A stretch of 64,000 nucleotides of DNA from the NCBI GenBank assembly GCA_015680685.1, contig MNCI01002560.1, forward strand, positions 100,354 through 164,353, in the 5' to 3' direction. The notes under the pieces are model-generated. The model did no database searches, was not told the DNA's origin, and was given only the letters and a program-made list of their open reading frames with translations. Every line of letters starts with the position of its first letter. Within the stretch, counting starts at the first letter, position 1. The stretch comes from Gnetum montanum. Lineage: Eukaryota; Plantae; Gnetophyta. Both the position numbers and the translations under genes were made by a program. Positions 2,434-61,597 of this stretch are shown here, piece after piece.

Positions 2434-2792
2434 NNNNNNNNNNNNNNNNNNNNNNNNNNNNNNNNNNNNNNNNNNNNNNNNNNNNNNNNNNNNNNNNNNN
2501 NNNNNNNNNNNNNNNNNNNNNNNNNNNNNNNNNNNNNNNNNNNNNNNNNNNNNNNNNNNNNNNNNNNNNNNNNNNNNNNNNNNNNNNNNNNNNNNNNNNN
2601 NNNNNNNNNNNNNNNNNNNNNNNNNNNNNNNACCAAAAAAGTCATATACCTCAGACTTGCTTAACCATACACCATGACACATACAAGCAAGCCTAGGAAG
2701 ACAATGAACAATTAACCCCAAGTGTTTCTTGTGGTGTTAAGGCATTTAGTCTACAGAGTTCGACTGGATCGTGCGTACATGCTCATATTCGT

Positions 2793-3880
2793 ATGGTTGA
2801 GTTTAGGGGTACCTCACCACTCATCACCAAGGATCCATGGAAAAGTATGTCAATGAAGTTTGTGAGTGGGATTCTAAAGATCAGAACTAGAAATGATGCT
2901 ATCTTTGTGATGGTGCATAGATTCTCTAGGATGGCATACTTCCTTGCATGTAAAAGGATCAGTGATGCATCTCATGTTGTAATTTTTTTTTCTATCATAC
3001 TATGAAGGTGCATGGGATTCTTTTGAATATAGTTACTAATAGAGAATCCAAGTTAACTAGTTATTTTTAGAAGTTCCTTTGGAAGATTTTATGGACAAAG
3101 TTAAATTTTTCTAGTGCATATTGTTTACAATCTAATGGCCAAATGGAAGTGTTAAATAAATCTTTGCTAAATATTTTAAGATGTTTTTATGATGGATAGC
3201 CTAATAGATGGAAAAATTTGTTGTATCATGCTAAATTTTTCTACAGAAATTCCTATTGTGTTATTATTGTTAAAAGTCCAGTTAAGGTAAATTATGATTT
3301 TTTTAAAGATAATGAAGAATCTAAGAAGCTTTGATGGAGAAGCTCAACTAAGTGTTACTCTTGTATAAGAGATGAAGAATCTTCATATGAAAGTGGAGGC
3401 TAATATTGAAAAGAAGGCTAAAGAAAGGGTTCTTAAGAGGAATGAGAATAAGAAAAAGCTAAAATTTGATGTTGGTGTTCTAGTTTGGATGCCCTTGAAG
3501 AAGAAGATATTGAAAAGTATTAACTTCTCAAAGTTAAAAGCTAAGAAAATGGATCATTTGAGAATAAAGGCCAAAATTAATGATAATGCTTTTAAGATTA
3601 ACTTACCAAATAATGTGGATATGTCTTTTATGTTTAATTTTGTAGATATTATGCATTACCATGGACTAGTAGATGATGAAACCATGTAGGGTAGCATCAA
3701 TGAGTTGAAGGGGGACTATTAATCAATCCAATCCTTCAATGAAGAGGAATGTAATTGTACTTATGGAGAGAGAAGCTTCTAAAACTTGTGAAGTGAAGAG
3801 GCATTGGTACTTAAACTATTGGAAGGATCAAATGGCTAATGATGTTGTGTGGATCCATGAGACCAAACTTGTTGAATGAA
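2793..3880 (+). pseudogene. pol: Degenerate Ty3/Gypsy chromovirus integrase, GPY/F region and chromodomain
   Basis: PWKSMSMKFV..DAIFVMVHRFSRMAYF matches the integrase core start. SNGQMEVLNKSL follows, then FDVGVLVW..KINDNAFKINLP, then a chromo-like WYLNYWKDQ..VVWIHE. Many stops. Confidence 0.85.
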
Positions 3881-4811: not shown

Positions 4812-7314
4812 ATCTACCCTTCCCCCACCCTTAGGTTTTTTTCATCCCTAAACAAGTCCATATTTACTATCTTTCTCTAACTCCAATGCTTCTTTTATGA
4901 TTTTATGCTCCAATAATTTGATTTCTCCTTTGAACTTGAAGTTGTTTCTTAATGTTCTCTTACTTATTCTACAAAAAATATATATATGAGAAGAATATAT
5001 GGAAATTTAAATATTATTTTATTAATACTTAGCTCATTTTCTAAGATATTGACAATAGGGTAATTAATGGTCTACTAACCACCAATCACCAATCCTAACC
5101 AGTGTTACAAAAAGTGCAACTCATATCTGGTTATCCAAGTAAAGGTAGGGCAAATCCTTATTTCCAACTTGCATTATGCTAGATATTTTTATTATCTAAA
5201 TAAAATTTAAACTAAATAATAAAGAAAATTATGAAAATCATAAATAAAAGTTATGTTCAGATACTTCTTGATCTTAATCAACCTTATGAATTTATGGAAG
5301 TAATTGTAGTCTATCATAATTGATATATGATCAAATGGTCTTTTTTGGGATGGAAGAGCTTGATCTTGCTTCTTCTCAACTTCTTCATTTGAAATTAATT
5401 CTAGTAACCTACTAATTTGGAAGAATCAAACATCATAGCAAATATAATCTGGGGTCACAATGAAGAATGATGTTGACCTATCTTCATTAATCATGGCAAA
5501 GTAATTAGTAAACTATGATTCTTAATGAATAATTTCCATCAACATCATTTGTTCTTGAATTTTTGGATCTAATTTATCTATTGAAGATTTGAAGCAAGAA
5601 AAATATGCACTAGCCAATGGGATTTCATGAAAACATCTTCTTCAAATCAGGTTCATCTTCTAATGATTCTTTTACACATCCATAGTTTAAGAATTGATAA
5701 ACACCACTTCCAAAATTTGCATTGAAGTTTCCACAATGGAAAATTAGCATTGGACCAATATGTCTTATGAATAATTTATTCTTTAAACTTTCCTCTATTT
5801 TCTTAATCAAGTATGCTCCTTGGAAGAATCTAACATCTGTACATATCGATTTAGCAATTAAATGTGTTAACCATGCATACGCATCTTTCCAATGACTTGA
5901 TTTTTAGTATCACTATCAAATCTATGTGGCTTCTCTAGAACCTTGATCATTCTTTATTTCCCATGACTTGAAGTTCTGGAATTTTCAAAATCATATATTT
6001 CAAACTCCATTTAAATCTTTGTACTAACTCAAACTTGGCTTCTTTATAAAAGATTGCACAACCCTCCATGTTGTAATTTCTATAATAGGATAATTTTTAT
6101 GGCTCAAAAGAATATTTTTTCTTATAATTACCTCTATATCCCATATTTTCCAAGTTCGGTTGCAATTGGTATAGGAATTCCCATTGAAAGACTTTTTGTA
6201 GATATAAGACATTAGCATCCAATTGTTGTAACTTTGCTAACATGCATTCAGTATCGACACTCATGCCAATTCAAGGCCCAAGGAGGACATAGCAAATGTT
6301 TTCCTTCACTGGATAGGGATCTTATTGGCATATTATATGTTTCCACTTTCATTCTCATTCATGGATTCTCTCCTAGGTCATTTCTCCTCATGGGTATCAC
6401 ACATCTTATCCAAACAATATTATGACTCTCCATGTTGTTTTTCCATATGATTTGGTTGTAGGAAAAATTGATATACATATTCTTTATCATTATAGTTCAC
6501 CAACTAATTAACTAATTTCGGGTTGGTAACATTTAGCTACATTACCTAGATTCTTAACAATCTTTCTATCCCTCTTAAGAACATTGCAATATAACTAATG
6601 TTGCACTAGGGGTTAGTGATCTTAAGAACATATAAAAACATTAAGTACTTAATCTTAAGGCCCAAAATATTAATTTTATTAGTCCCAATAAATAAATTAT
6701 TATGGATGATTAATTAGTCTAAGTCATTCCCTTTTAAAATAGCATTTATGATATCATCGAATTATCAATATCCAAATGATAAATATGGCCTAACCATTGA
6801 GTTCAAAAGGGTGAGAAATGTTGGAAATGACTATTCATATGTTAGAAATAAACATTGTATGCCCAAGTTATGCTAAAATTAAGCTTTTTGAGGATCTTGA
6901 AGAACCATGTTTTTTTAGAGAGAGAGAGAGAATGTTCGGGTTTGTATTACTGAAAGTTATGGTACACGAGTATACAATTACAAAGGGGGGGACATCAAGG
7001 ATGGTCCACTTTGAGGGGGGCGGGGGGGGGCCTTGGGACCCCAGACAACCACAAAAATCAAAACTCGGAGGACTCTAAGCTGAACCACCGAACCTCAAAA
7101 CCTCCAAAACCTTGGGGTTGAACAATGAGGGCAAGAGGGGGGGGCAGCCCCCCAACAAGGGGGGGGGGGGGGGGNCAAAAAAGAGGGGGGGGGGAGGGGG
7201 GGCACACCCCTAACAAATAGACGAAACAAACAAAGGAGGGGGGGGGGCAGAGGCAGGGGGGGCCTTTAGGGACGAGTCGGCAGATGGCGACAGGCACACC
7301 GAGGCCGTTCCAGC

Positions 7315-8670
7315 TCATGAAGCAGGTCCAGTGTGGCACGATGCTCCTCGGTGTCCATGAAGTTCGTGGCTTGTTGGAGGCTCTACATAGTAGCCTCTCT
7401 CCTGCTCTGGTCGGCCGACGAGTCCCCCGCATCTAGGTGGAATCTTGCAGACGTGCGTCTGATGTGTCGTCTGAGCTCCCCCCCAGGAGCTCTCACAACT
7501 AACGGCCAAAATGCTATATGGGCAACGCCCTCCCTTGAGCCACTGATGGGCACTTTGTTCATGTGCCCAATCAAGTTTTCGTTGTCATTGCTCTTCTTCC
7601 TCCTCCAGGCGCTCCTGCTCTTCCTAGGCCACCGCCTCTTGGGCCTGACGAGCCGCCTCCTCCTAGTGCAGCTCCTCCCTGATTCGGTCCTGTATCTCAT
7701 TAATGAGCTGGGCCTGCGAGGTCTCCATCATGAGCATGTGCTACCGGCTCAACTGTTGCGCTTGTTCACGAAGCTGGGCTTCATGGTCGGCGCGCAACTG
7801 AGCCAAGGTCTCGGTCCACTTTACCTCTGAATTCCATGGCCTCCCGAGTAGCAGTAACCACCTGTTGCAATTTCGCTTCCCAATTTGGGGGGGCGCTAGG
7901 GGGGTCAGGCGAGGGGGGGGATTTCGACGGGAGCAACGTCCCCAGGTGAGGTTCAAAGCTGTCTGCCGTTGTTGAGTGGCCGAGGTGGGGGAAGTCGGGG
8001 TGGCGGGGGCGGCATCAGCAAGGTGACCCCCAGTGGGGGTAGAGGACGGGCCGGGAGCCCCCTGCCCCCCCACCCCCCGCCGCAAAGCTAAAATTAACCC
8101 TGAGTGATGACCTTGTCGTTTAAGGCGGAGGGTCTCAAGGAAGATCCGCGGCAGGTTAACCTGGGTGTCGACCTTCAAGCACTTGAAGAAAGTGAAATGA
8201 AACCCCTGGAGCTTGGACACGTTGCCCGACAGGATGAAAAAACATTCCACCAAGGCGGCGGCGCGAGCCTAGAGGCGCGGGAGAGAAGACCGAGGGACCT
8301 GGCGGCTCTGCGTTCTTGGGGTTGGCCCCTCGAAAAAGATCGTAGAGTTCTGGAGATCGCGGGACGTTGGCAGGATGACTTTGCCAGCGGCTGGGACCCC
8401 CAAATAGTTGGCAATGGTAGCTTCCGTGAGACAAATTTCACGGCCTTGAAAGTAGGTTTGATCATCATGCCAGTTAGTAAAGAACGTGGTGTCAGGAAGG
8501 TCAGGGTCCCTGACTAGCCTCTGCAGGAGGTCGGCCCAGCCACACTGGTAGACCATCCGCCAGAGCTCCTTGTCATCCTGGTAGATGGCGCAGTCAGGTT
8601 CATACATCGGCGTCGCTCCCATGTTGTCCGCAAGCTTGCGCCACACTCTACAGGTCCATAGGATAAGTCT
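7315..8670 (-). pseudogene. Extra LINE coding region: plant-transposon/PMD-like domain, Pro/Thr linker and coiled coil
   Basis: ORFs 8269-8646, 7741-8253 and 7315-7509 are in one frame, separated by point stops (mostly TAG). Motifs FFTNW..TYFQGREICLTEATIANYLGVP and CLKVDTQVNLPRIFL, followed by an E/Q/R-rich helix. Confidence 0.65.
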
Positions 8671-8689
8671 CTAGGGGGGGTTATAGCCT

Positions 8690-11600
8690 GTGCAAAGACT
8701 GTGCAATTCCGTGCCTTCTAGGTGTGCCATAATAGCAGTGCCGACCAGGAGTCACCATTAAATCACTGCGGGGGGGGGGGCATCTTGCATGCACGCCAAG
8801 TGGCGATCATGCAAGGGCATTCGTAAATGAAGTGGGTGAGCGTTTCAGGGCTAGTTCCGCAGTGCGGACATGTGGTGTCATGTGTGATGCTGCACTGCTG
8901 TAGTATGGCACGTACGGGGAGTGCTGCAGAATGTATCAACCAGAGAAACATTCTGACTTTCCCGGGGAGCTACCAGTGCCAGATCACCTGCCAGCCGTCT
9001 TCCGGGGGATATTTTTGTGTCAGGATGGCACGTGGCTCGAGGTGGATCCAGCCCAGGCATAGCATCTCTCACACATGCCGACAAATGGTCTGCCAAGGCC
9101 ACGAAGTGTGCAATCCAGTCTGCCAAGGAGTATATTTCTGGCGGACGATGCGGGCCCACTGGCTGTGCTCCCCCAGCGCACGTGTTAGCCGGTGGATGAG
9201 CCGTTGCTGATCCATCGTGCATTCATCTTCGAAAGATGTGACCCCCAAACCCCCTGCCATACGAGGACGGGCCANNNNNNNNNNNNNNNNNNNNNNNNNN
9301 NNNNNNNNNNNNNNNNNNNNNNNNNNCCAAATGAAGCAGCGGATCATGGCGTTGATCTGGTGAATGATGGCCGCGGGGGATGCGGCGACTGCCGCCACAA
9401 ACCGCGTAGTGGCCACGAGGATCCTAGTAGCCATGAGGAGGCGTTCCTTGCATGTAAGAAAACGATTTACCCAGTGGTTCATGCACTTCTCGAGCTTGGC
9501 CAGGAGGGGAGTCCAAGTATTGTTCCATCCCCATTGGAACAGCAGGATACCAAGGTAGGTATTGGTGATTTTTCCGGATTGAATGTTCAGGATTTGTGTA
9601 ACCTGGTGCTGCACCTGCAGGTCCACATTGATGAAGTATGGCACTGACTTTGTGTGGTTGATTTCCAAACCTAATTCGACCGCCAATCTGGTCAGGGCCA
9701 GGTTGATACACCATGCCTGTGGTGCCGCCGCCCAGCTGAGAAGCATGGTATCATCAGCGTAGTGTTCAACACGGCAAGCCACCCCCGCAATGTCCAGGCC
9801 TTCCACCCCCGAGGTGCTGCAGTAATATTGCATGAGGTCCATGGCAATGATGAAAAGAAAGGGGGACAGGGGATTGCCTTGTCTCAGACCTCTACTAGGG
9901 GAGGAAAAGCCCCACAACCGCCCACCCACGTCAAAGGAGAAACCTGCGGAGGACTGGATATGCAGACATAATTGGATAAAACCAGGGTCAAAGCCTTTCT
10001 TATGCATGATGTCCTGTAAGGCGTCCCAACTAAGCGTATCGTATGCCTTCGCTATGTCTAGCTTGAGACATAGGCCAGGAAACCCCGTAATACGGAGGGA
10101 ATGAAGGACCTCTTGCAAAAGAAGAACCTGATCCTGAAGGGTCCTACCATGAACGAAGCCCGCCTGATTGCGTCCAACCAACTTAGGCAAGATGGGTCCT
10201 AGATGATTGACCAGGAGTTTGGAGAAGACGCGAATGAGAACATTGCACACACCAATGGGACGGAAGTGCTTCAGGCGGTGTGCATTCAACTGTTTTGGGA
10301 TGCAAACGATGCGCAAGTAGTTGAGTTCGCGCCGTACTTGTCATCTGGCCAGCATGAGGATGAAAGCATCCAGAAGATTAGGCCCCACAATATCCAAGAA
10401 AGCTCTAAAGAACTCCAATGACCAGCCGTCCGGTCCAGGTGGTTTACCTCCTGGCATGTTGTTGATGGGGCCAGAAGATGTTGATTGTCCGCTACAGTGA
10501 GCACCTTTGCCACATGGACTGAGATGGGTTGGGTGGGGTGCTTGGTCCAAATGCACCCCCAATAATGTGAGAGCTCATTAGCGATCCCCTATGGATCATC
10601 AACCACCGCCCCAGCCTAAGTACGGAGGCCACGGATGTGATTTTTGCCACGCGTCTTAGCCATGGCGAAGAAGAATTTCGTATGTTGGTCCCCCTCGCGG
10701 AGCCATCTAATCTAGGATCGCTGCCACCAATAGGTCTCCTCCTCATGATCTAGACTCTAGAGTTGACGGAGAAGGTGCATCTCCTCCGAGTGCAGGTCCT
10801 CCCCATTCTCTTGTTGCGCTTGGATGTGTCCAAGCTGCTCCCAAACCATCTTGTGGCTAGCATGAAATGAAAACTTCTCCCCCACCGGGAGGGCCTGAAT
10901 GGCCCACTTGAGCCGAAGGAGAGCTTCTTTGAGGAAGCTTCGAGGATTCATCCGACCCAGCTGGTAATCGGCCCAGATGTCCTCCACCAGGGGCCGAAGC
11001 CATGGTTTGGGAAACCATGTGGTTTCGAATCAAAATGGGCATGGGGCCCAGGGTTGAGGTGGGCCAATGGACACAACCAATGAGCGGTGGTCAGAAGCAG
11101 CCTGCTCCTGCCCTGTCACATTGATGGTTGTGCCAAGGAGGAGAGCAGAGCTGACACAAACTCGATCAATGCGGGAGAGGACACGGTGCACCCCTTTCCG
11201 CTGGTTGCTCCATGTGAAACGGCATTTCGTAATGGGCAGGTCAACAAGAGAAGAGCGCTCAAGGAACTCCATGAAATCTGGCGTGCCCAGGGGGGCGCCC
11301 CCCCTAGATTTCTCCCAGGGGTACAGACGCTGGTTGAAGTCACCGACAACCACCCAGGAGCCGTGATCAGGCACCAGCAAGGCCACTTGATTCAACTCAT
11401 GAAGCCGTGATTCCCAAGCCTACGCCCCATAGAAGTTGGTCAGCCAAAAACCATGGGCTGGGACATGGACCGTGATGGTCCATGGGGATGCATCCACCAG
11501 AGTGGTGGTGGGTCATGCAAGAATAGCCAGGCCTCCGGCCCGGCCCTAGCTAGGGTGCATGTAGGTGGTCCAGCCCATCCACTGGAGGTGATCGGATTCC

Positions 11601-11725
11601 GTGGCTTGCAGCTTGGTTTCCTGAAGGTAGACCATATCACAATTCTCCTCTCTGACAACACGTCTCAGGGTATTTTGTTTATAGGGGATGCCCTTCCCCC
11701 TGCAATTCCAGCTGAAAATCTTCAT
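8690..11725 (-). pseudogene. LINE ORF2: APE endonuclease, reverse transcriptase, zf-RVT; frameshifted
   Basis: MKIFSWNCRG..YLQETK, VVGDFN, SRIDRV, SDHRSL; KPPGPDGW; FRPIGVCN, KLDIAKAYD, GLRQGNPLSPFLF, YADD; GGLG; CPHCGTSPETLTHFIYEC; LWHT*KARN. Confidence 0.95.
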
Positions 11726-13356
11726 GCGCAGCCAGAGGTGTGGCGCTGGTAGACCTCCTGTAAGGTCTGCTGTTGGCCCAAGTCGATGTGTCATTGGGCT
11801 TGTCGACTTCTGGATCAGGACTCGATCGGGCGACCTGGGCACCCCTCCCCCTCGCGGACCACAGGGGTGCAGCCGGCCTCCTCAGCTGGGGGCTGTGGCA
11901 CCTTGCGCTATCTGGTCCGGGTGCTCCTCCGGACGACGTTGACCCAGTCTCCCANNNNNNNNNNNNNNNNNNNNNNNNNNNNNNNNNNNNNNNNNNNNNN
12001 NNNNNNNNNNNNNNNNNNNNNNNNNNNNNNNNNNNNNNNNNNNNNNNNNNNNNNNNNNNNNNNNNNNNNNNNNNNNNNNNNNNNNNNNNNNNNNNNNNNN
12101 NNNNNNNNNNNNNNNNNNNNNNNNNNNNNNNNNNNNNNNNNNNNNNNNNNNNNNNNNNNNNNNNNNNNNNNNNNNNNNNNNNNNNNNNNNNNNNNNNNNN
12201 NNNNNNNNNNNNNNNNNNNNNNNNNNNNNNNNNNNNNNNNNNNNNNNNNNNNNNNNNNNNNNNNNNNNNNNNNNNNNNNNNNNNNNNNNNNNNNNNNNNN
12301 NNNNNNNNNNNNNNNNNNNNNNNNNNNNCCCAGTTGCCCTCCTCAAAAGGTTGGCGGGTTGGGTTATTCGATCGGCGCCTACGAAATCGACAATCTACCT
12401 CGCGATGGCCCGGCTTACCATAGCATCCGCATCCGTCTAGCAGGTCCATTTGGAGGGTCGTGCCATTCAGCGTATAGTCCCTAGTGTCCATGTTTTCATA
12501 GGTAATTTGGAGGGATTCCTCCACCCCTTGGAGTTCCAAGATGACCTCCCGGACAAGGTCGATCGCCGCCAGGTTTTGCCAGACACAGAAATGGGCAAAG
12601 CCCATCCGTTCGAGTGACCTCGTAACCTTGTCGGAAGCGATGAAATCATCGAAGTTCCCCACCACCTCTTACAAGAACTCAAGACTCCATAATTCCCATG
12701 GGATGCCGGCCACCCGGATCCAGATTGGGGCATGGGTAAACAGATTGGGTTCTCTGTGGGCGCTGGGGCGCCAGAGTCAATGCAAGACCATGGGTCCCAT
12801 AGAACCAAGGCCCGCCGAGAAGAATGGAATCGTGGGCCTGCAAAGAGGGGAGGACAAAGAGGAGCAGATCCTCTGAGAGGCTCCAAATAGTAACGTCCTT
12901 GATTTTCCACTACTCCTTGACCCAGCAGCGTATCAAGTCAAGCCGAGGATGGCTCCCCCAGGAGATGAAATGGCCCATGACGCTCCGTTCCATGGTACGA
13001 ACGCCTTCGGCAGGGGGGTGGCAGATGCGAAGGCGCAGGGTGTTGTTGGAATAGGAATGAGCCACGATGATTCCTCCAATTTCTGCTACCGCCATGGTTG
13101 CTGCTGCCGCCATGGCAGCCGTGGCCGGGGTCGCTGTCGCAGTGGTCGCTGCCGCCGTAGTCGTTGTCGCTGTAGTCGCTGCCGCCGCCATGGTTGCTGC
13201 CGCTGTAGTCGTTGTCCCAGTGGTCGCTACCGCCGTAGTCGCTGCTGTGGTTGTTGCAGCCATCGTGGTTGCTGCCGCCGTGGTTGTAGCTGCCATGGTT
13301 GCCGCCGCCATGGTGGTGGCTGCTGTGGTTGCTACTGCCGTAGTTGCTACGGCCAT
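11679..13356 (-). pseudogene. LINE ORF1 (DUF4283-like plus CCHC knuckle), disrupted
   Basis: LLGGPWFY, PIWIRVAGIPWELWS, ERMGFAHFCV, QITYE and CGCYGKPGHREVDC motifs. Contains stops, a frameshift and an N gap. Confidence 0.8.
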
Positions 13357-13390
13357 GGTTGCTACTGCCGTGGTTGCTGCTGCCGTGGTT
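13085..13390. repeat. 15-bp tandem array at the LINE 5' end (GCCGCCATGGTTGCT-like)
   Basis: About 20 degenerate units seen directly. Confidence 0.9.
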
Positions 13391-13779: not shown

Positions 13780-14270
13780 TATGGAGGTTTGTGCAAGGCA
13801 ACATTCCATGATGTCTGCAATGTTCATGGAGCTCCATGGAACATAGCATTCCATAGTGTTTGTGGTATCCTCAATGCTCTATGGAAGGCTACATTCCATA
13901 GTGTCTACAGTGTCCACCATGCTCTATGGAAGGCTACATTCCATAGTGTCTACAGTGTCCACCATGCTCTGTGGGAGGTAGCCTTCCATGATGTCCATGA
14001 TGTCCATGATGCTTCATGGAAGGCAACATTCCATGATGTTCATAGTGTCTATAGAGCTCCATAGAAGGTAATATTCCATGATGTCCATGATATCCATGAA
14101 GCTTCATGGAAGGTAGCATTCCATGATGTCCACAATATCCACAAAGCTTTGTGGCAGGTATCCTTCCATAGTGTCCATGGTGTCTATGGTGCTCCATGAA
14201 AAAGAGCATTCCATAGTGTCTATGGTGCTCCATGGAAGGTAGCATTCTACAATGACTACAATGCTCCTAA
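13780..14270. repeat. ~45-bp minisatellite inside element E
   Basis: Unit CTCTATGGAAGGCTACATTCCATAGTGTCTACAGTGTCCACCATG, about 10 copies. Confidence 0.9.
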
Positions 14271-49148: not shown

Positions 49149-52100
49149 GATTTTTGGCAAGATTGCAGAAAGAATGCATATGAGAATCTTCATTTTCCCT
49201 TGGTCTTAACTAGACCTTATGGCAATTCCATGAGATGCATAAACACTGAACTCCTAGAATTTAAGTCTGTGACTTATGACACAAATGTAGCATCCCTAGA
49301 GACATCTCTAAATTAGCCAAACCATCTAGTTAGAGCCCTAGACCTAGAAGTAGGTGACATAACTAAGGATCCTATCATTGAAAGAGGTAAAGATGTTAAA
49401 AATTAGTTCCTTGTTAGAGCCTCACATCAAAAAAAGCATCTCAAAATTTCTCAATGATAATGTTAAAGCATTCACATGGTCCTAAAAGGACATGCCAGGC
49501 TTGGACCCTTACATAATACAACACAACATTATTCTTAATTCTCACATAAAACTAGTTAAATAGAAAGCTCGTAAGGTCAAACCTAAGGTGGCATTGGTAG
49601 TTCACAATCAAATCACTAAGATTTAAAAAGCTAGTTTTATTTGGGTATTTGACTACATTGATTGGGTTTCAAACATCATAGTTGTTCCTAAGAAAAATGG
49701 AAGTATATGCACTTGCATAGCCTTCTAGGACCTGAACAAGGAAAACATTAAATATGACTTCCCATTGCCTAGTATTAATTAACTCATCAATACTACAGTT
49801 GGTCATGCCTTATTATCCTTCATGGATAGGTTATTAGGGTACAACCAAATTCAAATCAATCCAAAGCACCAACTCAACTCCACCTTCACGACCCCTTGGG
49901 ATACATTTTACTATACCATGATGCCTTTCAGAAAAAAGAATGTAGGAGCAACCTATCAACATGCAATGACATATAGTTTTAGTAATTATATTCTAGACTT
50001 TCTCAATGACTACATTGATGACATAGCAGTTAAGTCCAGGGTAGTGCACAACCATGTAGATGACTTAGACTATGTCCTCAAACATTGCCTTAGACATGAT
50101 CTTACATTAAACCCCAAGAAGTGTGTCTTCGGCGTCAAGATTGGTCACATGCTAGGCTTTGTAGTATCAAAATTAGGTATACATGTAGACCCTAATAATG
50201 TTAAGGGTATCATGAACCTAGCACCACTGGTAAACCTTAAAGATCTATGTAGGTTACAAGGTAGATTGCAATTCATATGAAGATTTATCACAAGGTTAAT
50301 TAATAAGTTGTTGTCAATGCAGCATTTTCTTAAAAAGGGATCCAATTTGAGTGGATAGCACAATGCCAAAAGGCATTTGACAACCTCAAAAAGAAGCTAG
50401 CTCAACTTCCAATAGTCTAACCTCCACAAAGAGATAAGCCATTATACATTTACCTTGCAACCTCAGATATGTTCATTACTTCTCTGCTTTACCAAAAGTG
50501 AGAAAATGGCTCAAAGGTCCCTATTTATTACTTAATCCATGTACTAGTGGCCCATGAGGTGAAATACAATGATGTAGAGAAGAATTAAATCACATTAGTC
50601 TTTGCACTCAAGAAATGAAGGCATTATATTCTCTGCAGTTAGGTTAATGTTATCTATAAAAGCAATGTACTCTGGGTGATTGCTATAAACATCTACAAAA
50701 GTGGTTGACTTGCATGGTGGAAGGTTATAACTATGGAGTTTGACCTACACTAGATAGCATAAACATCCACAAAGGGTCAAGCAATAGCTGCACAAGTCAC
50801 AGCTTCACCCATAAATAATCAAGCAACAATAGATCTAGAATTTTTGGATGAGTATGTCAATAGCATAAGTAAAGTGCCTACAAACTTTGAGGTAGATTTA
50901 CACTTTGATGCTACTTCAACTACATAAGGTAGTAGTGCTACTATCATCATCATGTTTCCCTCTAGGAAGATCTAACCCTTCACATATCACTTTGCATTTC
51001 CTTGCACAAATAACATGGTGGAGTATGAAGGTCTCCTTAGTGGTGTCTTAGCAACTCATGATCTAGGAATCCAAAACATAGGAATCTAAGGTGATTCATA
51101 GCTTGTTATCAGCCAAGTTATAGAGGTTTATGCTTGTAAGGCATAACATTTAGAACCTTACTCTGATTTAGCAAAACACTTGCTCAAACAATTTGCAACT
51201 ATAGATGTCCAACTCATTCCCTATAATGAAAATTCCATTGCTAATGCATTAGATACTTTAGCCTTAAGCATAGCACCCAACATGTTTTCTACATTACCCA
51301 CTTTGATAATGGATTGCACTGAACCTATTACTCAAACAACAAGCATTTCATTCATAGCCATGATAAGCACAGTTCACACCTAGTAGTCGTATGATGATAC
51401 TAAGATGTACCTCCAATAGGGTGAACCTCTACAAAATCTAACCTCTAACCAAAAAAATGTAGTGCAAAAATGATTGTACCAATACATCCTAGTATGTGAT
51501 AATACTTTGTGTCATAGATCCTATGATGGAGTTCTATTAACTTGCGTTAGTGGTAGTAAAGCATAAAAGGTCGTTGATCAAGTCCATGAGGGGACTATGC
51601 AGAGGCCACATAGCATGTAGGGAAATGGTAGTAAAAATCAAACGCCTAGGCTACTATTGGCCTTACATGAAGCATGATTTCATTTTCAAGATCAAAACAT
51701 GTGATGTGTATTAGCGACATAATAACCTAATGCACGTGCCACCCACTGAACTACATACTATGTGGATTGCATGGTTGTTCTAATATTGGGGGTTGGATAT
51801 CATAGGACCTATAATGCCTAAGTCTTCTATAGGATATAGCTTCATCATAACCACAACTGAATACTTTACTAAGTGAATTCAATCCATTCCCCTTAGGAAG
51901 ATAAAATCACAATAGTTTTTGCAAATTTATTCTAGACAACATAGTGACTCGATTTGATCTACCCATGATTATAGTCATAGACAATGGGCCACAATTTAGT
52001 AGCATAGAAACTAAAGCCTTTTGTTGACACCTTGGCATTAAACATTCTTTTTCGTCACCATACTACCCACAAAAAATGGCCAAGTGAAGGTTATGAATAG

Positions 52101-58004: not shown

Positions 58005-61000
58005 ACGTAAAACGGCTTTAGGTACAAGTGATTGGTTGGATTGGAAAGCTCGTTTCCTTCCACGTCAGCTAGCTTGAATGCTCCATTGTCAAATGCTTTA
58101 GTGACCAAGTAAGGCCCTTCCCAGTTAGCTAAGAATTTGTCCGAGTGTTCCCGAACAGCTTTAAGCACAAGGTCACCTTCTTTGATAGGGCACTTGTTGA
58201 TGTTATGTCGATGTCATTGCCATTGTTGTTTTTGGTACCATTCGATTTGGTCGAGTGCGCGTATGCGTTCCTCTTCCACCGAGTCCAGGTCGATGATACA
58301 CAGATCATTATTCTGCCCGTCATTGAGAAGTCCAAAGAGTGTGATCCTTAAAGATGGTACCTGTAATTCCAAAGGTAAAACAGCTTCTGAACCGTAACCT
58401 AGACTATATGGTATTTTACTTGTTGACGTTCAGTGCGTAGTACGGTATGCCCACAATGCGTACACCAATTGTTCGTGCCACTTCCTCTTGCTTTGGGTAA
58501 GCATTTTCTTAAGTATTGTAATAATCGTCTTGTTTGTTGCTTCCGCTTGTCCATTGCTTTGAGGATAGTAAGGGGATGAAAACGAATGTTTGATCCCTAG
58601 GCTTTTGTAAAAGGTTTGGGTTTTGGCATTGCTAAATTGTGGCCCGTTATCAGTGATGATTGTTATGGGAATGCCAAAACGGGTTACAATGTTTTCGAGG
58701 ATGAAATTGCATACATGTTTAGATGTAGTTTTGCGAAGGGGAGCAACTTCTACCCACTTCGTAAAATATTTGGTTGCGGTTATGATGAAACTATGCCCTA
58801 CAAAAGATGAGGGTGTTATCGGGCTGATAAGGTCCAATCCCCACTTTTGAAAGGGCCATGTGATTTGTGTTGTATGCAACTCATTTGGCGGGACATGTAT
58901 TAGATTACTATGTTTTTGGCAAGTGCTACATGTTTTAACCTTGGAGAAACATTCATACTCCATGTGCGTCCAATAGTAGCCTAAGCGTCTGATTTTCGTT
59001 GCCATGGCTTTTGGCGCTATGTGTCCTCGACATAGTCCCTCACGTACCTGATCAACAATAGTTCAGGCATCGGTACTACTAATGCACGTTAGCAATATGC
59101 CTTCGTAGGATCGACGACACAATGTGTCCCCTACCAGGGTATACTACTTAGAACATTTGCGCACTGCGTCTTTCTATGCATTTGTTAGATGTCGTGGTGT
59201 TTCACCATGTAGAAGGTATTCTTTTATGTTGTCATACCATTCTACCGCATGTGTTGTACTAACAGATGCAATTGGCAACGTATCGGGAGTATCGATTATC
59301 GGTTTGGCACAATTGACTATGGAGCTTGGTAGTGCGTGAAACATGTCTGGCGATATGTTTAATGCTAATGTGGCTAACGCGTCTGCAATGGTGTTATCAT
59401 TTCTAGAAACGTGTTGCACATTGATGTTTTCAAATCGCCTCATTAGGTGTTTTGCCAAGTCATAGTATGATTGTAAGTGTTGGGCTTTGCATGTATAGAC
59501 GTCTGTGACCTGGTTTAGGACTAGTTGCGAGTCTCCCCTGACTACAAGCCATGTGATGTCTGAAGCTAGTGCTGCCACAAGGCCTCTAAGGAGACCTTCA
59601 TACTCCGCTATGTTGTTCGTACAGTGAAAGTCGAAATGATAAGCAAAGGGTTGGATCTCCCCAGAGGGATAGGTGATGACAGCAGCTGCACTTCCTCCTC
59701 GAGAGGTGGATGCTCTGTCAAAGTTTAGGATGGCATCGTAGTCATTGGGCACTGTGTCTATGGCGCTTATACTCTCATCCGGGAACTCTGGCTCTATAGT
59801 CGCTTGATCGCGTGTTGGTGATGTGGCCATTTGGTTTGCTATGGCTTGACCCTTGACTGATGATTGTGCTACGTAGTACAGGTCAAACTCGGCTATCATG
59901 GCTTTCCACCGGGCTATTCGACTTGTTTCATAAGTGTTCCCTGTTATGGCTCTTAATACATTGTCCTTGCAAATTATGTACACCTGGTTATAGAAGAGGT
60001 AATGTCGCCATTTTCTTAAGGAAAAGACCAAAGCTAAACATGACTTCTCTACATCGTTGTACCTTTTCTCGTGGGCAACTAATGCATGGCTCAAGTAATA
60101 TACAGGGACTTCAGTTCCGTCATCTTATTTCTGGCAAAGCATAGACGCGATTGACGATTCCGAAGTGGCGAGGTAAATGTAAAACGGTTTATCGTTTTTG
60201 GGCAGGTAAACCATAGGTAGTCGGGCAAGTGCTGTTTTGATGTTCTCGAATGCTTCTTAGCACTACAGAGTCCATTCAAAATAGACGTTTTTGTGTAATA
60301 GGTGGTTCATAGGTTTTAGTTTGTCCGTCAGTTTTTCTATGAAGCACCTGATAAAGTGCAATCTACCTTGTAGACCTCGAAGTTCGGTAAGGTTGCCTGG
60401 TAGTTTTAGGTTTGTTATGGCCTTAACATTATCGGGGTCCACCCGTATTCCTGCTTCTGAGGCTATAAATCTGAGCATTTTTCCTGTTTTGATGCCGAAG
60501 ACACATTTTTTTGGATTAAGTCTTAGTTCATACTTCAAACAACGTTTCAATACTAAGTTGAGATCTTGTACATGTTGTTCTTCAGTTTTTGATTTAACTA
60601 CAATGTCATCCACATAATCGTTGAGCGATCGTAGCATGTAATCACTAAAGATAAATGTCATCGCTTTTTGATACGTAGCTCCTACGTTCTTGAGACCAAA
60701 GGACATCATTGTATAGCAAAAGGTTCCCCATGGTGTCATAAAGGTTGTCCTAATTGATGTTCCAGGTTGATACGTATTTGATTGTATCCTGAGAAGCCAT
60801 CCATAAAAGACAATAAGGCATGCCCAGCAGTTGATTCAACAAGTTGATCGATGCTGGGTAGAGGAAAATCATCTTTTATGGTTGCAACATTTAGATCTCG
60901 GAAGTCAATGCATAAGCGAATGCTTCCATTTTTCTTTGGGATAATGACCATGTTGGACACCCACTCGGCGTAACCAATAGTCCGAATGAAACTGGCTTGA

Positions 61001-61500
61001 TAAAGCTTGGTGATCTCATTGCAAACTGCCAATGCCACCTCGGGTCTAACCTTTCATGCCTTTTATTTTACTGGTCTCAATTTTGGGTCAAGAATGATGT
61101 TGTGTTGGACAATTCTAGGGTCTAACCCGGGCATGTCCGTATAGGACCAAGTGAAGGCTTTCATATTTTCCCTAAGCACATTCTTGATGTCTTTGGCCAA
61201 GTGCGGTTGTAATAGCATGCTTAATTTTAATACTTTAATTTCCCCATCAGGCATGGTAATGGGGGTTTCCACCAATGGGTCTTCGGTGATATTTTCGGCT
61301 TCTATGTCTAGGAATTTTGTCATGCCTTCGTAATCGTCTGTTGTTTGCTGTGTTGAGGATATGACTACGTCGTCTGTTGGTGAACTCAAGTTGATGAGAT
61401 TTATGTTAATGTCTCGTGCAATTTTGTCATACAGTCCGTCAATGATTAACGGTGCGGTTAAATGCTGGCAGTCCATTGAGCTTGCTCCTGCCAATAAACA
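58005..61500 (-). pseudogene. pol: pol of D: RT, RNase H, additional RNase H, integrase (few frameshifts)
   Basis: AFTWSYTDMPG, LCIDFRDLN, FMDGFSGYNQI, YVDD, LNFD..CTNNIAEYEGL, WGLDLI..TDNGPQF..SNGQAEATNK. Confidence 0.97.
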
Positions 61501-61597
61501 GAGAGCTGAATAAGAGAAAGGGGAAATGTTCTATGCCTTTTGGTAATTTTAAACTATGTGTACATGCATAATAGTGGATTATCATCACACCGGGACA

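What the first reader, a model, noticed from the sequence alone, without database searches (positions are those of the whole stretch)
7315..8690. L1 LINE with an extra ~450-codon plant-transposon-like domain and coiled coil after zf-RVT
Seen: where many plant L1 elements end or have RNase H, this LINE continues with one long frame (broken only by point stops) before its 3' UTR and tail. One indel in the C7 run at ~8675 plus TAG->CAG would fuse it to ORF2 (VFAQAITPPQRLILWTCRVWRKL). Its motifs (GW..LL, FFTNW, GREICLTEATIANYLGVP, VNLPRIF) resemble accessory ORFs of LTR elements. Inference: capture of an accessory or anti-silencing domain across retroelement classes.
Basis: partly seen in the sequence, partly recalled or inferred. 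Interest (0 to 1): 0.8.

Follow-up and report, generated by a model that had tools for sequence, protein, structure and literature searches.

The report
Plant LINE with VANC-like J-domain ORF
A many-copy plant LINE jumping gene carries, after its normal copying enzyme, an extra coding region shared by its sibling copies, made of a domain related to accessory proteins of LTR retrotransposons, a long helix and a weakly matching J-domain (chaperone adaptor); it likely binds the element's own DNA and recruits the Hsp70 chaperone to counter silencing, which is untested.

Summary
An L1 (DUF4283, endonuclease, RT, zf-RVT; minus strand) continues into about 450 extra codons. Sibling contigs cover this region in four runs with four organism labels, and six non-self contigs bridge it to the ORF2 tail. 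It is therefore not a one-off chimera. Residues from Met 8622 match a Transposase_32/Athila-type accessory-ORF family (profile 41.8 bits); one homolog lies 3' of a gypsy integrase. A confident model of a homolog matches only the anti-silencing factor VANC21 (Z 7.0, 191 residues, next hit 2.2); the window's own weak model did not. The frame is not broken by point stops alone. Siblings lack one base at 7478, and reading through there with X gives a J-domain (Pfam E 8e-4, below cutoff) and a stop at 7266-7268. Fusion to ORF2 is unresolved: 2 of 6 bridging contigs are in the fusion phase (about 55%). Most likely it is an oligomeric DNA-binding, Hsp70-recruiting anti-silencing factor (inferred). 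Ten literature searches showed no such plant LINE, but none used J-domain terms.

The parts
13102..13390 (-). 15-bp tandem array (19 copies) upstream of ORF1; possibly LINE 5' region; candidate cis target only, family membership untested
12345..12971 (-). ORF1 remnant with DUF4283, broken by stops; N gap 11955-12328 follows
   Evidence: E 2.6e-11
11033..11722 (-). ORF2 endonuclease domain, broken by stops
   Evidence: Exo_endo_phos E 2e-4 on 11033-11419
9072..10340 (-). ORF2 reverse transcriptase
   Evidence: RVT_1 E 3.6e-25
8796..9023 (-). ORF2 zf-RVT
   Evidence: E 3.2e-14
8674..8720 (-). ORF2 tail (W-K-A-R-N motif; the stop at 8720 reads Trp in 90-96% of sibling depth) and the length-variable C run at 8674-8680
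8623..8670 (-). 16 codons before Met 8622, open in the extra frame; W-x-[ED]-[IL] kept in 5 divergent sibling readings
   Evidence: table 7, read by hand
8080..8622 (-). Transposase_32/Athila-accessory-ORF-like domain starting at the Met where homologs start; homolog's predicted fold resembles VANC21
7831..8079 (-). Pro/Ser/Thr-rich, indel-rich linker; likely two compensating frameshifts in this copy
7570..7830 (-). Coiled-coil-like helix with 4 private-looking stops
   Evidence: composition only
7326..7521 (-). J-domain (DnaJ), split by a one-base frameshift at 7478; H-L-D at the HPD site in this copy
7266..7268 (-). Family stop codon; sibling similarity ends here
   Evidence: tables 2 and 7
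6910..7265 (-). C-rich 3' UTR and (CT)7-A7 tail; no target-site duplication found

Best explanation
This high-copy plant L1 family carries a conserved 3' coding unit (Transposase_32/Athila-type domain, linker, coiled coil, weakly matching J-domain) that was likely taken long ago from an LTR-retrotransposon accessory ORF and likely acts as an oligomeric, DNA-binding, Hsp70-recruiting factor that would keep the element's own copies from being silenced. Shown: family-wide presence, linkage to the ORF2 tail, homology of the N-terminal domain, and a sub-cutoff J-domain match. Predicted: a VANC/PMD-like fold (from a homolog's model). Inferred: DNA binding, oligomerisation through the coil, Hsp70 recruitment and anti-silencing (about 45%). 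Also inferred: active copies read ORF2 straight into this unit (about 55%), possibly with a second start at Met 8622. The copy in the window is dead.
For:: 5097, 4463, 4456 and 1789 contigs laid on 7180-9270 in 4 of 4 runs (4 organism labels, 3 studies), with depth in 30, 30, 30 and 29 of 30 bins. The stop at 8271 reads Trp in 94-97% of depth, the residue homologs have there; the stop at 7385 is absent in 90-99%; 6 non-self contigs bridge the junction with 31+ letters on each side. 10 of 11 listed records in the domain, coil and J-domain parts have no net indel, against 1 of 7 in the linker. By hand, 25 of 61 differing codons in the 14 in-ORF loose ends are synonymous (neutral share 0.24-0.30; p 0.004-0.044); a profile of 44 homolog domains without the window sequence scores 41.8 bits at 8610-8125; the next hit in the window scores 1.0; a homolog lies in sense behind a gypsy integrase; the homolog model (153 residues at pLDDT 90 or more) has VANC21-DNA as its only Z>=5 hit among 48,161 chains (Z 7.0, rmsd 4.6, 191 aligned; next 2.2).
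Against: No functional data exist. Z 7.0 is under the tool's caution level of 8, and Foldseek gives E 1.4. The window's own model (pLDDT 62) did not retrieve VANC21, and the homolog is only 25-27% identical. The direct Pfam hit is E 0.071, far below cutoff. The J-domain scores 19.9 bits against a cutoff of 27.8, its PDB matches are E 0.06-0.31, and this copy has H-L-D; the siblings' motif was not among the listed rows. Only 2 of 6 strict (4 of 9 loose) bridging contigs are in the fusion phase, and 3 of 6 (4 of 9) share the window's unfused phase. The loose-end tally used 14 of the 24 rows shown, out of 1,241; these rows overlap and are not independent. One donor-context locus only; the direction of transfer is not shown.
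Confidence: 0.5

Rival explanations
1. The same unit, but as a separate ORF3 starting at Met 8622 and made by re-initiation or from its own transcript, like LTR accessory ORFs; ORF2 ends near the C run.
For: The Met coincides with the homologs' start: 29 of 44 homolog domains begin with M-G-G at residue 1, many being near-duplicates. The Met is kept in the sibling readings with a purine at -3 (by hand). 3 of 6 strictly bridging contigs share the unfused phase. The donor-type ORF in L002 is separate from pol.
Against: The codons upstream of the Met vary mostly at third positions of the extra frame and keep W-x-[ED]-[IL], with no stop, in 5 divergent readings (by hand; 7 codons, suggestive only). 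+4 is the commonest non-zero offset. Homopolymer runs elsewhere in this copy also slipped (7478). Nine poly(A) RNA reads of a divergent relative run upstream of the Met.
Confidence: 0.35
2. The unit serves retrotransposition directly rather than anti-silencing: the J-domain brings Hsp70 to fold or disassemble the ORF2 ribonucleoprotein, and the VANC-like domain steers insertion to chosen DNA or chromatin.
For: It sits where other plant L1s carry RNase H, on the ORF2 tail (tails; PMC5203782 passages). A fusion would act in cis on the RNP. A shared fold shows no function (note). The host J-protein SILENZIO promotes silencing, so a J-domain does not imply activation (PMC8616336 passage).
Against: The only structural neighbour is an anti-silencing factor bound to its target DNA. 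The domain family also occurs in LTR elements with a different insertion chemistry.
Confidence: 0.3
3. A passenger: an LTR fragment was transduced once by the family's ancestor and has hitch-hiked without function.
For: This copy has stops and frameshifts; the linker is full of indels; some loose ends carry stops.
Against: The domain is 19-27% identical to any homolog yet aligns end to end. Stops at 8271 and 7385 are private to this copy. Synonymous excess, codon-position GC like RT (0.56/0.43/0.68 vs 0.55/0.39/0.62), and similarity that ends exactly at the stop codon all point to coding constraint.
Confidence: 0.07
4. A one-off chimera or nested LTR insertion in this copy.
For: No second copy in the window; no ORF2 protein with the domain among 48 L1 relatives and no RT-bearing protein among 71 domain homologs.
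Against: Thousands of sibling contigs in 4 runs, and 6 non-self contigs with 17-36 mismatches that bridge the junction.
Confidence: 0.02

Closest known systems
Plant L1 LINEs (DUF4283 ORF1; EN-RT-zf-RVT ORF2, some with RNase H), e.g. Celine (PMC11288735) and the survey PMC5203782
   Same: Same domains, same order, poly(A)-type tail.
   Different: About 1.36 kb of extra coding sequence where RNase H or the 3' UTR would be. RT is at most 35% identical to full-coverage database relatives; 0 of 48 of them carry the domain.
Sense 3' accessory ORFs of Athila-type Ty3/gypsy elements (Transposase_32 PF20167 / ATHILA PF03078; sunflower Athila 14 ORF(+), PMC11728184; review PMC7264820)
   Same: Homologous N-terminal domain, then a low-complexity linker. 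The Athila domain is modelled to oligomerise through coiled coils (PMC13547354 passage).
   Different: Here it lies in a non-LTR element, possibly fused to ORF2, and ends in a J-domain; 0 of 47 alignment members hit DnaJ at E 0.01. No strongly hydrophobic stretch (max hydropathy 1.42 over 8670-7480).
VANC21 anti-silencing protein of VANDAL DNA transposons (PDB 9lnk, 9lnj) and PMD proteins MAIN/MAIL1
   Same: Predicted fold of a homolog aligns over 189-191 residues at Z 7.0. PMD and VANC are reported as structurally alike (PMC13547354 section 10; bioRxiv 2024.09.27.615353 passages).
   Different: 9-10% identity; DNA binding and demethylation untested here; VANC is not described with a J-domain in the passages read.
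Host chromatin J-domain proteins: SILENZIO with MBD5/6 (PMC8616336 passage); DNAJ1/2 with SUVH1/3 (recalled, paper not held)
   Same: A DNA-targeting module coupled to an Hsp70-recruiting J-domain.
   Different: Here both are in one transposon-encoded polypeptide; direction of the effect unknown.
Accessory domains on LINE ORF2 or shared across retroelement classes: insect R1 LINEs with a viral helicase (PMC4686597, listing; PMC6338049, passages); bdelloid ORF3s (PMC5408684, abstract)
   Same: Precedent for C-terminal capture and cross-class sharing.
   Different: Animal elements and different domains.

Membership tests
Plant L1 LINE | ORF1 with DUF4283 | tested here: met
   E 2.6e-11
Plant L1 LINE | ORF2 with AP endonuclease, RT and zf-RVT in order | tested here: met
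   all 48 RT relatives carry RVT_1, and those with a species name are plant proteins
Plant L1 LINE | 3' poly(A) or simple-repeat tail | tested here: met
   (CT)7-A7 at 6930-6910
Plant L1 LINE | Target-site duplication | tested here: inconclusive
   No match over 10 bases between the flanks searched; 5' end not defined
Transposase_32 (PF20167) / ATHILA accessory-ORF family | Score above the Pfam curated cutoff | tested here: not met
   13.4 bits vs 45; homologs also fall below it (P0005 14.3; L002 ORF 20.9), so this is a distant relative, not a curated member
Transposase_32 (PF20167) / ATHILA accessory-ORF family | Significant full-length homology to proteins linked to the family | tested here: met
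   phmmer E 4.7e-7 and 4.4e-4; profile 41.8 bits over positions 6-167 of 172; 6 of 47 members hit PF20167; Atlas 23 of 30 hits PF20167 for homolog P0005
Transposase_32 (PF20167) / ATHILA accessory-ORF family | Homologs lie 3' of pol in LTR elements | tested here: met
   1 of 5 loci fetched (L002) had enough upstream DNA; it shows an rve integrase then the ORF in sense
VANC/PMD anti-silencing proteins | Shared fold | tested here: inconclusive
   Homolog model Z 7.0, rmsd 4.5-4.6, 189-191 aligned, next Z 2.2; window's own low-confidence model gave no such row
VANC/PMD anti-silencing proteins | Sequence-specific binding to own element and loss of methylation | not testable with these tools
   Needs ChIP/DAP-seq and methylome data
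J-domain (Hsp40) proteins | Full-length DnaJ profile match | tested here: inconclusive
   E 8.3e-4, positions 2-63 of 63, but 19.9 bits vs cutoff 27.8, on a decayed copy read with X at two breaks
J-domain (Hsp40) proteins | HPD motif (motif name recalled; seen in the PDB alignments) | tested here: inconclusive
   H-L-D in this decayed copy, so not met here; sibling letters at 7436-7434 were not among the 40 of 360 rows shown
ORF2 fusion | One reading frame from zf-RVT into the domain in family members | tested here: inconclusive
   2 of 6 strict, 4 of 9 loose bridging contigs in phase; tail-scoring test did not discriminate

The most novel reading that the evidence does not exclude
A LINE family encodes its own sequence-specific anti-silencing machine: a VANC-fold DNA-binding domain taken from Athila-type LTR elements, oligomerised by a coiled coil and wired to Hsp70 by a J-domain, fused to the reverse-transcriptase protein. 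Athila accessory ('env-like') ORFs, PMD and VANC would then be one anti-silencing superfamily spread over LINEs, LTR elements and DNA transposons.
Probability: 0.3. Interest if true: 0.9.

Novelty: new variant of a known kind. Interest (0 to 1): 0.75.

Why it matters
In the papers read here, transposon-encoded anti-silencing in plants is demonstrated for VANDAL DNA transposons, and the role of LTR accessory ORFs is left open (PMC7264820, PMC12844716). A successful LINE family that keeps such an ORF under coding constraint shows the module is useful across retroelement classes. That argues against an envelope role, since LINEs make no particles (established knowledge). The fold link to VANC21 and the attached J-domain give concrete tests: DNA binding, Hsp70 dependence and methylation change at family copies.

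Tried and rejected
No whole genome is held, so no full-length sibling, copy number or dN/dS was obtained. No second copy in the window. The word-indexed protein search with the window domain alone found none among 1,905 candidates. Two of the four phmmer hits (P0002, P0004) are repeat proteins matching a 22-29-residue stretch and were dropped. The metagenome scan with the domain alignment found no relative. Scoring the three possible ORF2 tail phases against 24 of 48 L1 tails did not separate them (shuffle p 0.58-0.85). The window's own model gave no significant match in PDB, BFVD or VIA searches, and the profile found no PDB sequence. Linker and coil did not match the homolog profile beyond the last domain motif. 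The tree cannot name a donor: long branch 1.89, midpoint root, 17 near-duplicate rows left out. No RNA holder was listed for the stretch. Sixteen poly(A) reads on 206 bases, all under 90% alike, show only that a divergent relative is in RNA. An env-like membrane role found no support. The Atlas was not searched with the window's protein. Three paper look-ups were not held. Look-ups of earlier findings by sequence or place found nothing. No supplements were opened; tables S10-S11 of PMC5203782 list L1 domain combinations and may bear on novelty.
Full report
1. The observation. The minus strand from about 13000 to 6910 is a decayed plant L1. It has DUF4283, endonuclease and RT, zf-RVT and a (CT)7-A7 tail. 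After zf-RVT, the frame 8670-7315 has 452 codons and 5 internal stops. Over 8670-7480, 5 stops in 397 codons is fewer than shuffles give (best-of-three-frames mean 10.5, p 0.016). GC by codon position in the N-terminal part resembles RT. No genome is held and the window has no second copy, so siblings came from public assembly contigs.

2. It is a family feature. Laying four runs (4 organism labels, 3 studies) on 7180-9270 placed 5097, 4463, 4456 and 1789 contigs, with depth in 30, 30, 30 and 29 of 30 bins. These counts are not copy numbers, and run X1 may be the window's own sample. In the zoomed lay, 24 of 1,101 records are listed. Ten cross the C run; one is identical to the window, and six others bridge with 31 or more letters on each side. 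A one-off chimera is excluded. The stop at 8271 reads Trp in 94-97% of sibling depth, and homologs have Trp there. The stop at 8720 in the ORF2 tail reads Trp in 90-96%. Of 18 listed records that I tallied within the ORF, 10 of 11 outside the linker have no net indel, against 1 of 7 inside it. By hand, 25 of 61 differing codons in the 14 in-ORF loose ends shown are synonymous, against a neutral share of 0.24-0.30 (p 0.004-0.044). Those rows overlap and are 14 of 24 shown out of 1,241, so this is suggestive only.

3. Corrected anatomy. Siblings lack one base in the G run at 7478 (13, 69, 64 and 61% of depth). In the shifted frame, the stop at 7385 is absent in 90-99% of depth, one loose end differs only at synonymous sites (4 of 4, by hand), and the frame ends at 7268-7266. 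Depth collapses there, and 15 and 13 contigs run on as loose ends at 7267. Indels in the linker suggest two compensating shifts between about 7950 and 7830; this is less certain.

4. The N-terminal domain. Pfam gives only Transposase_32 at E 0.071. A search of 1.84 billion representatives gave four hits; two are repeat artefacts and two are real (Ginkgo Gb_11572, E 4.7e-7; P0005, E 4.4e-4). An alignment search added 71 proteins, none with an RT domain on record. A profile of 44 homolog domains, built without the window sequence but seeded from a hit found with it, matches 8610-8125 at 41.8 bits. In 29 of the 44, the protein begins M-G-G at the position of Met 8622. Six of 47 alignment members hit PF20167, and the Atlas places P0005 among PF20167 (23 of 30 hits) and ATHILA (4) clusters. 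One of five fetched loci had upstream DNA: a gypsy integrase followed 1.2 kb later by the ORF in sense. The window's domain is 19-27% identical to the 27 homologs kept and forms a long branch outside both groups. The capture is therefore old or the donor is not held; direction is inferred.

5. Fold. The window's model is weak (pLDDT 62) and matched nothing. The model of homolog P0005, from an alignment that includes the window, is confident (153 residues at 90 or more) and has a similar helix-strand order. Among 48,161 chains its only Z>=5 match is VANC21 bound to target DNA (Z 7.0, rmsd 4.6, 191 residues; next 2.2). The second VANC21 entry gave the same. Foldseek ranks it second by E-value (1.4), with TM 0.33 against 0.14 or less for the other rows listed. 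This is a stand-out but middling match, and a fold shows no function.

6. J-domain. I tested that here. The first six of nine PDB matches are J-proteins (E 0.06-0.31). This copy has H-L-D at the HPD site, and sibling letters there were not displayed. None of 47 alignment members hit DnaJ, so the J-domain looks like a separate addition. Another unchecked note (e1-8583418) reports a J-domain in the env slot of a flatworm gypsy element; I did not test it.

7. Fused or separate. Fusion needs a net +1 (mod 3) against the window. Strict bridges read +4, +4, 0, 0, +3 and -1; the three looser ones read +4, +4 and 0. For fusion: five divergent loose-end readings keep W-x-[ED]-[IL] with no stop upstream of the Met and vary mostly at third positions of the extra frame (by hand, 7 codons), and homopolymers slip elsewhere in this copy. 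For a separate ORF: the donor's start Met is kept with a purine at -3, and half the bridges are unfused. A tail-similarity test did not discriminate. I put fusion at about 55% and a separate ORF3 at about 35%; both products are possible.

8. Mechanism. The most likely reading (inferred) is that the VANC-like domain binds DNA of the family, the coil oligomerises it, and the J-domain brings Hsp70 to remodel silencing complexes. VANC21 binds motifs in its own element and causes methylation loss (PMC12844716, passages). VANC and PMD share structure, and VANC and the Athila domain are modelled as coiled-coil pentamers (PMC13547354, section 10 and passages; bioRxiv 2024.09.27.615353, passages). Host chromatin regulation uses J-proteins with Hsp70 (SILENZIO; PMC8616336, passage). 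The activating SUVH1/3-DNAJ1/2 complex is recalled only. The main rival is a role in RNP folding or target choice.

9. Novelty. L1 with RNase H is known (PMC5203782, passages). Transposase_32 accessory ORFs are known in Athila (PMC11728184, section 9; PMC7264820, parts 1-2 of 3). Cross-class sharing is known in animals (PMC5408684, abstract; PMC4686597, listing; PMC6338049, passages). Celine has two ordinary ORFs (PMC11288735, passages). Ten full-text searches listed no plant LINE with this domain and no report of a PF20167-VANC fold link. I read only listings for most hits, none of the searches used J-domain terms, subscription papers such as Heitkam 2014 and the VANC21 structure paper are not held, and repeat libraries were not searched. 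Verdict: a new variant of a known kind, real and conserved, with function and fusion open.

Noticed in passing
window 58430-61530 (minus strand): Ty3/gypsy pol remnant with RT, RT-RNase H, a second RNase H (RVT_3) and integrase; the layout recalls Tat/Ogre elements (label recalled). No copy of the extra domain elsewhere in the window.
   Followed up: partly
window 13795-14222: Degenerate 45-bp tandem array (8.5 copies, with 90- and 135-bp higher periods) upstream of the LINE; unexplained.
   Followed up: no
window 13102-13390: GC-rich 15-bp array of 19 copies directly upstream of ORF1; open in several frames.
   Followed up: partly
window 49783-50280 (plus strand): Another RT-like fragment of LTR type by motif; not scanned.
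   Followed up: no
window 2697-3689 (plus strand): Decayed integrase-like remnant by motif; not scanned.
   Followed up: no
L001:3-3116 and L002:2727-4202: Donor-type accessory ORFs of about 1,050-1,100 aa with long ETQ-rich repeats and a C-terminal region without Pfam match.
   Followed up: partly
P0003, P0055-P0124: Many Ginkgo gene models (Gb_ ids) are copies of this accessory domain, some joined to host domains such as PPR repeats (P0092); they may be misannotated transposon ORFs.
   Followed up: no
window 8560-8630, run X12: Poly(A) RNA reads come from a divergent relative (under 90% alike) that keeps the protein motifs, a lead to an expressed subfamily.
   Followed up: partly
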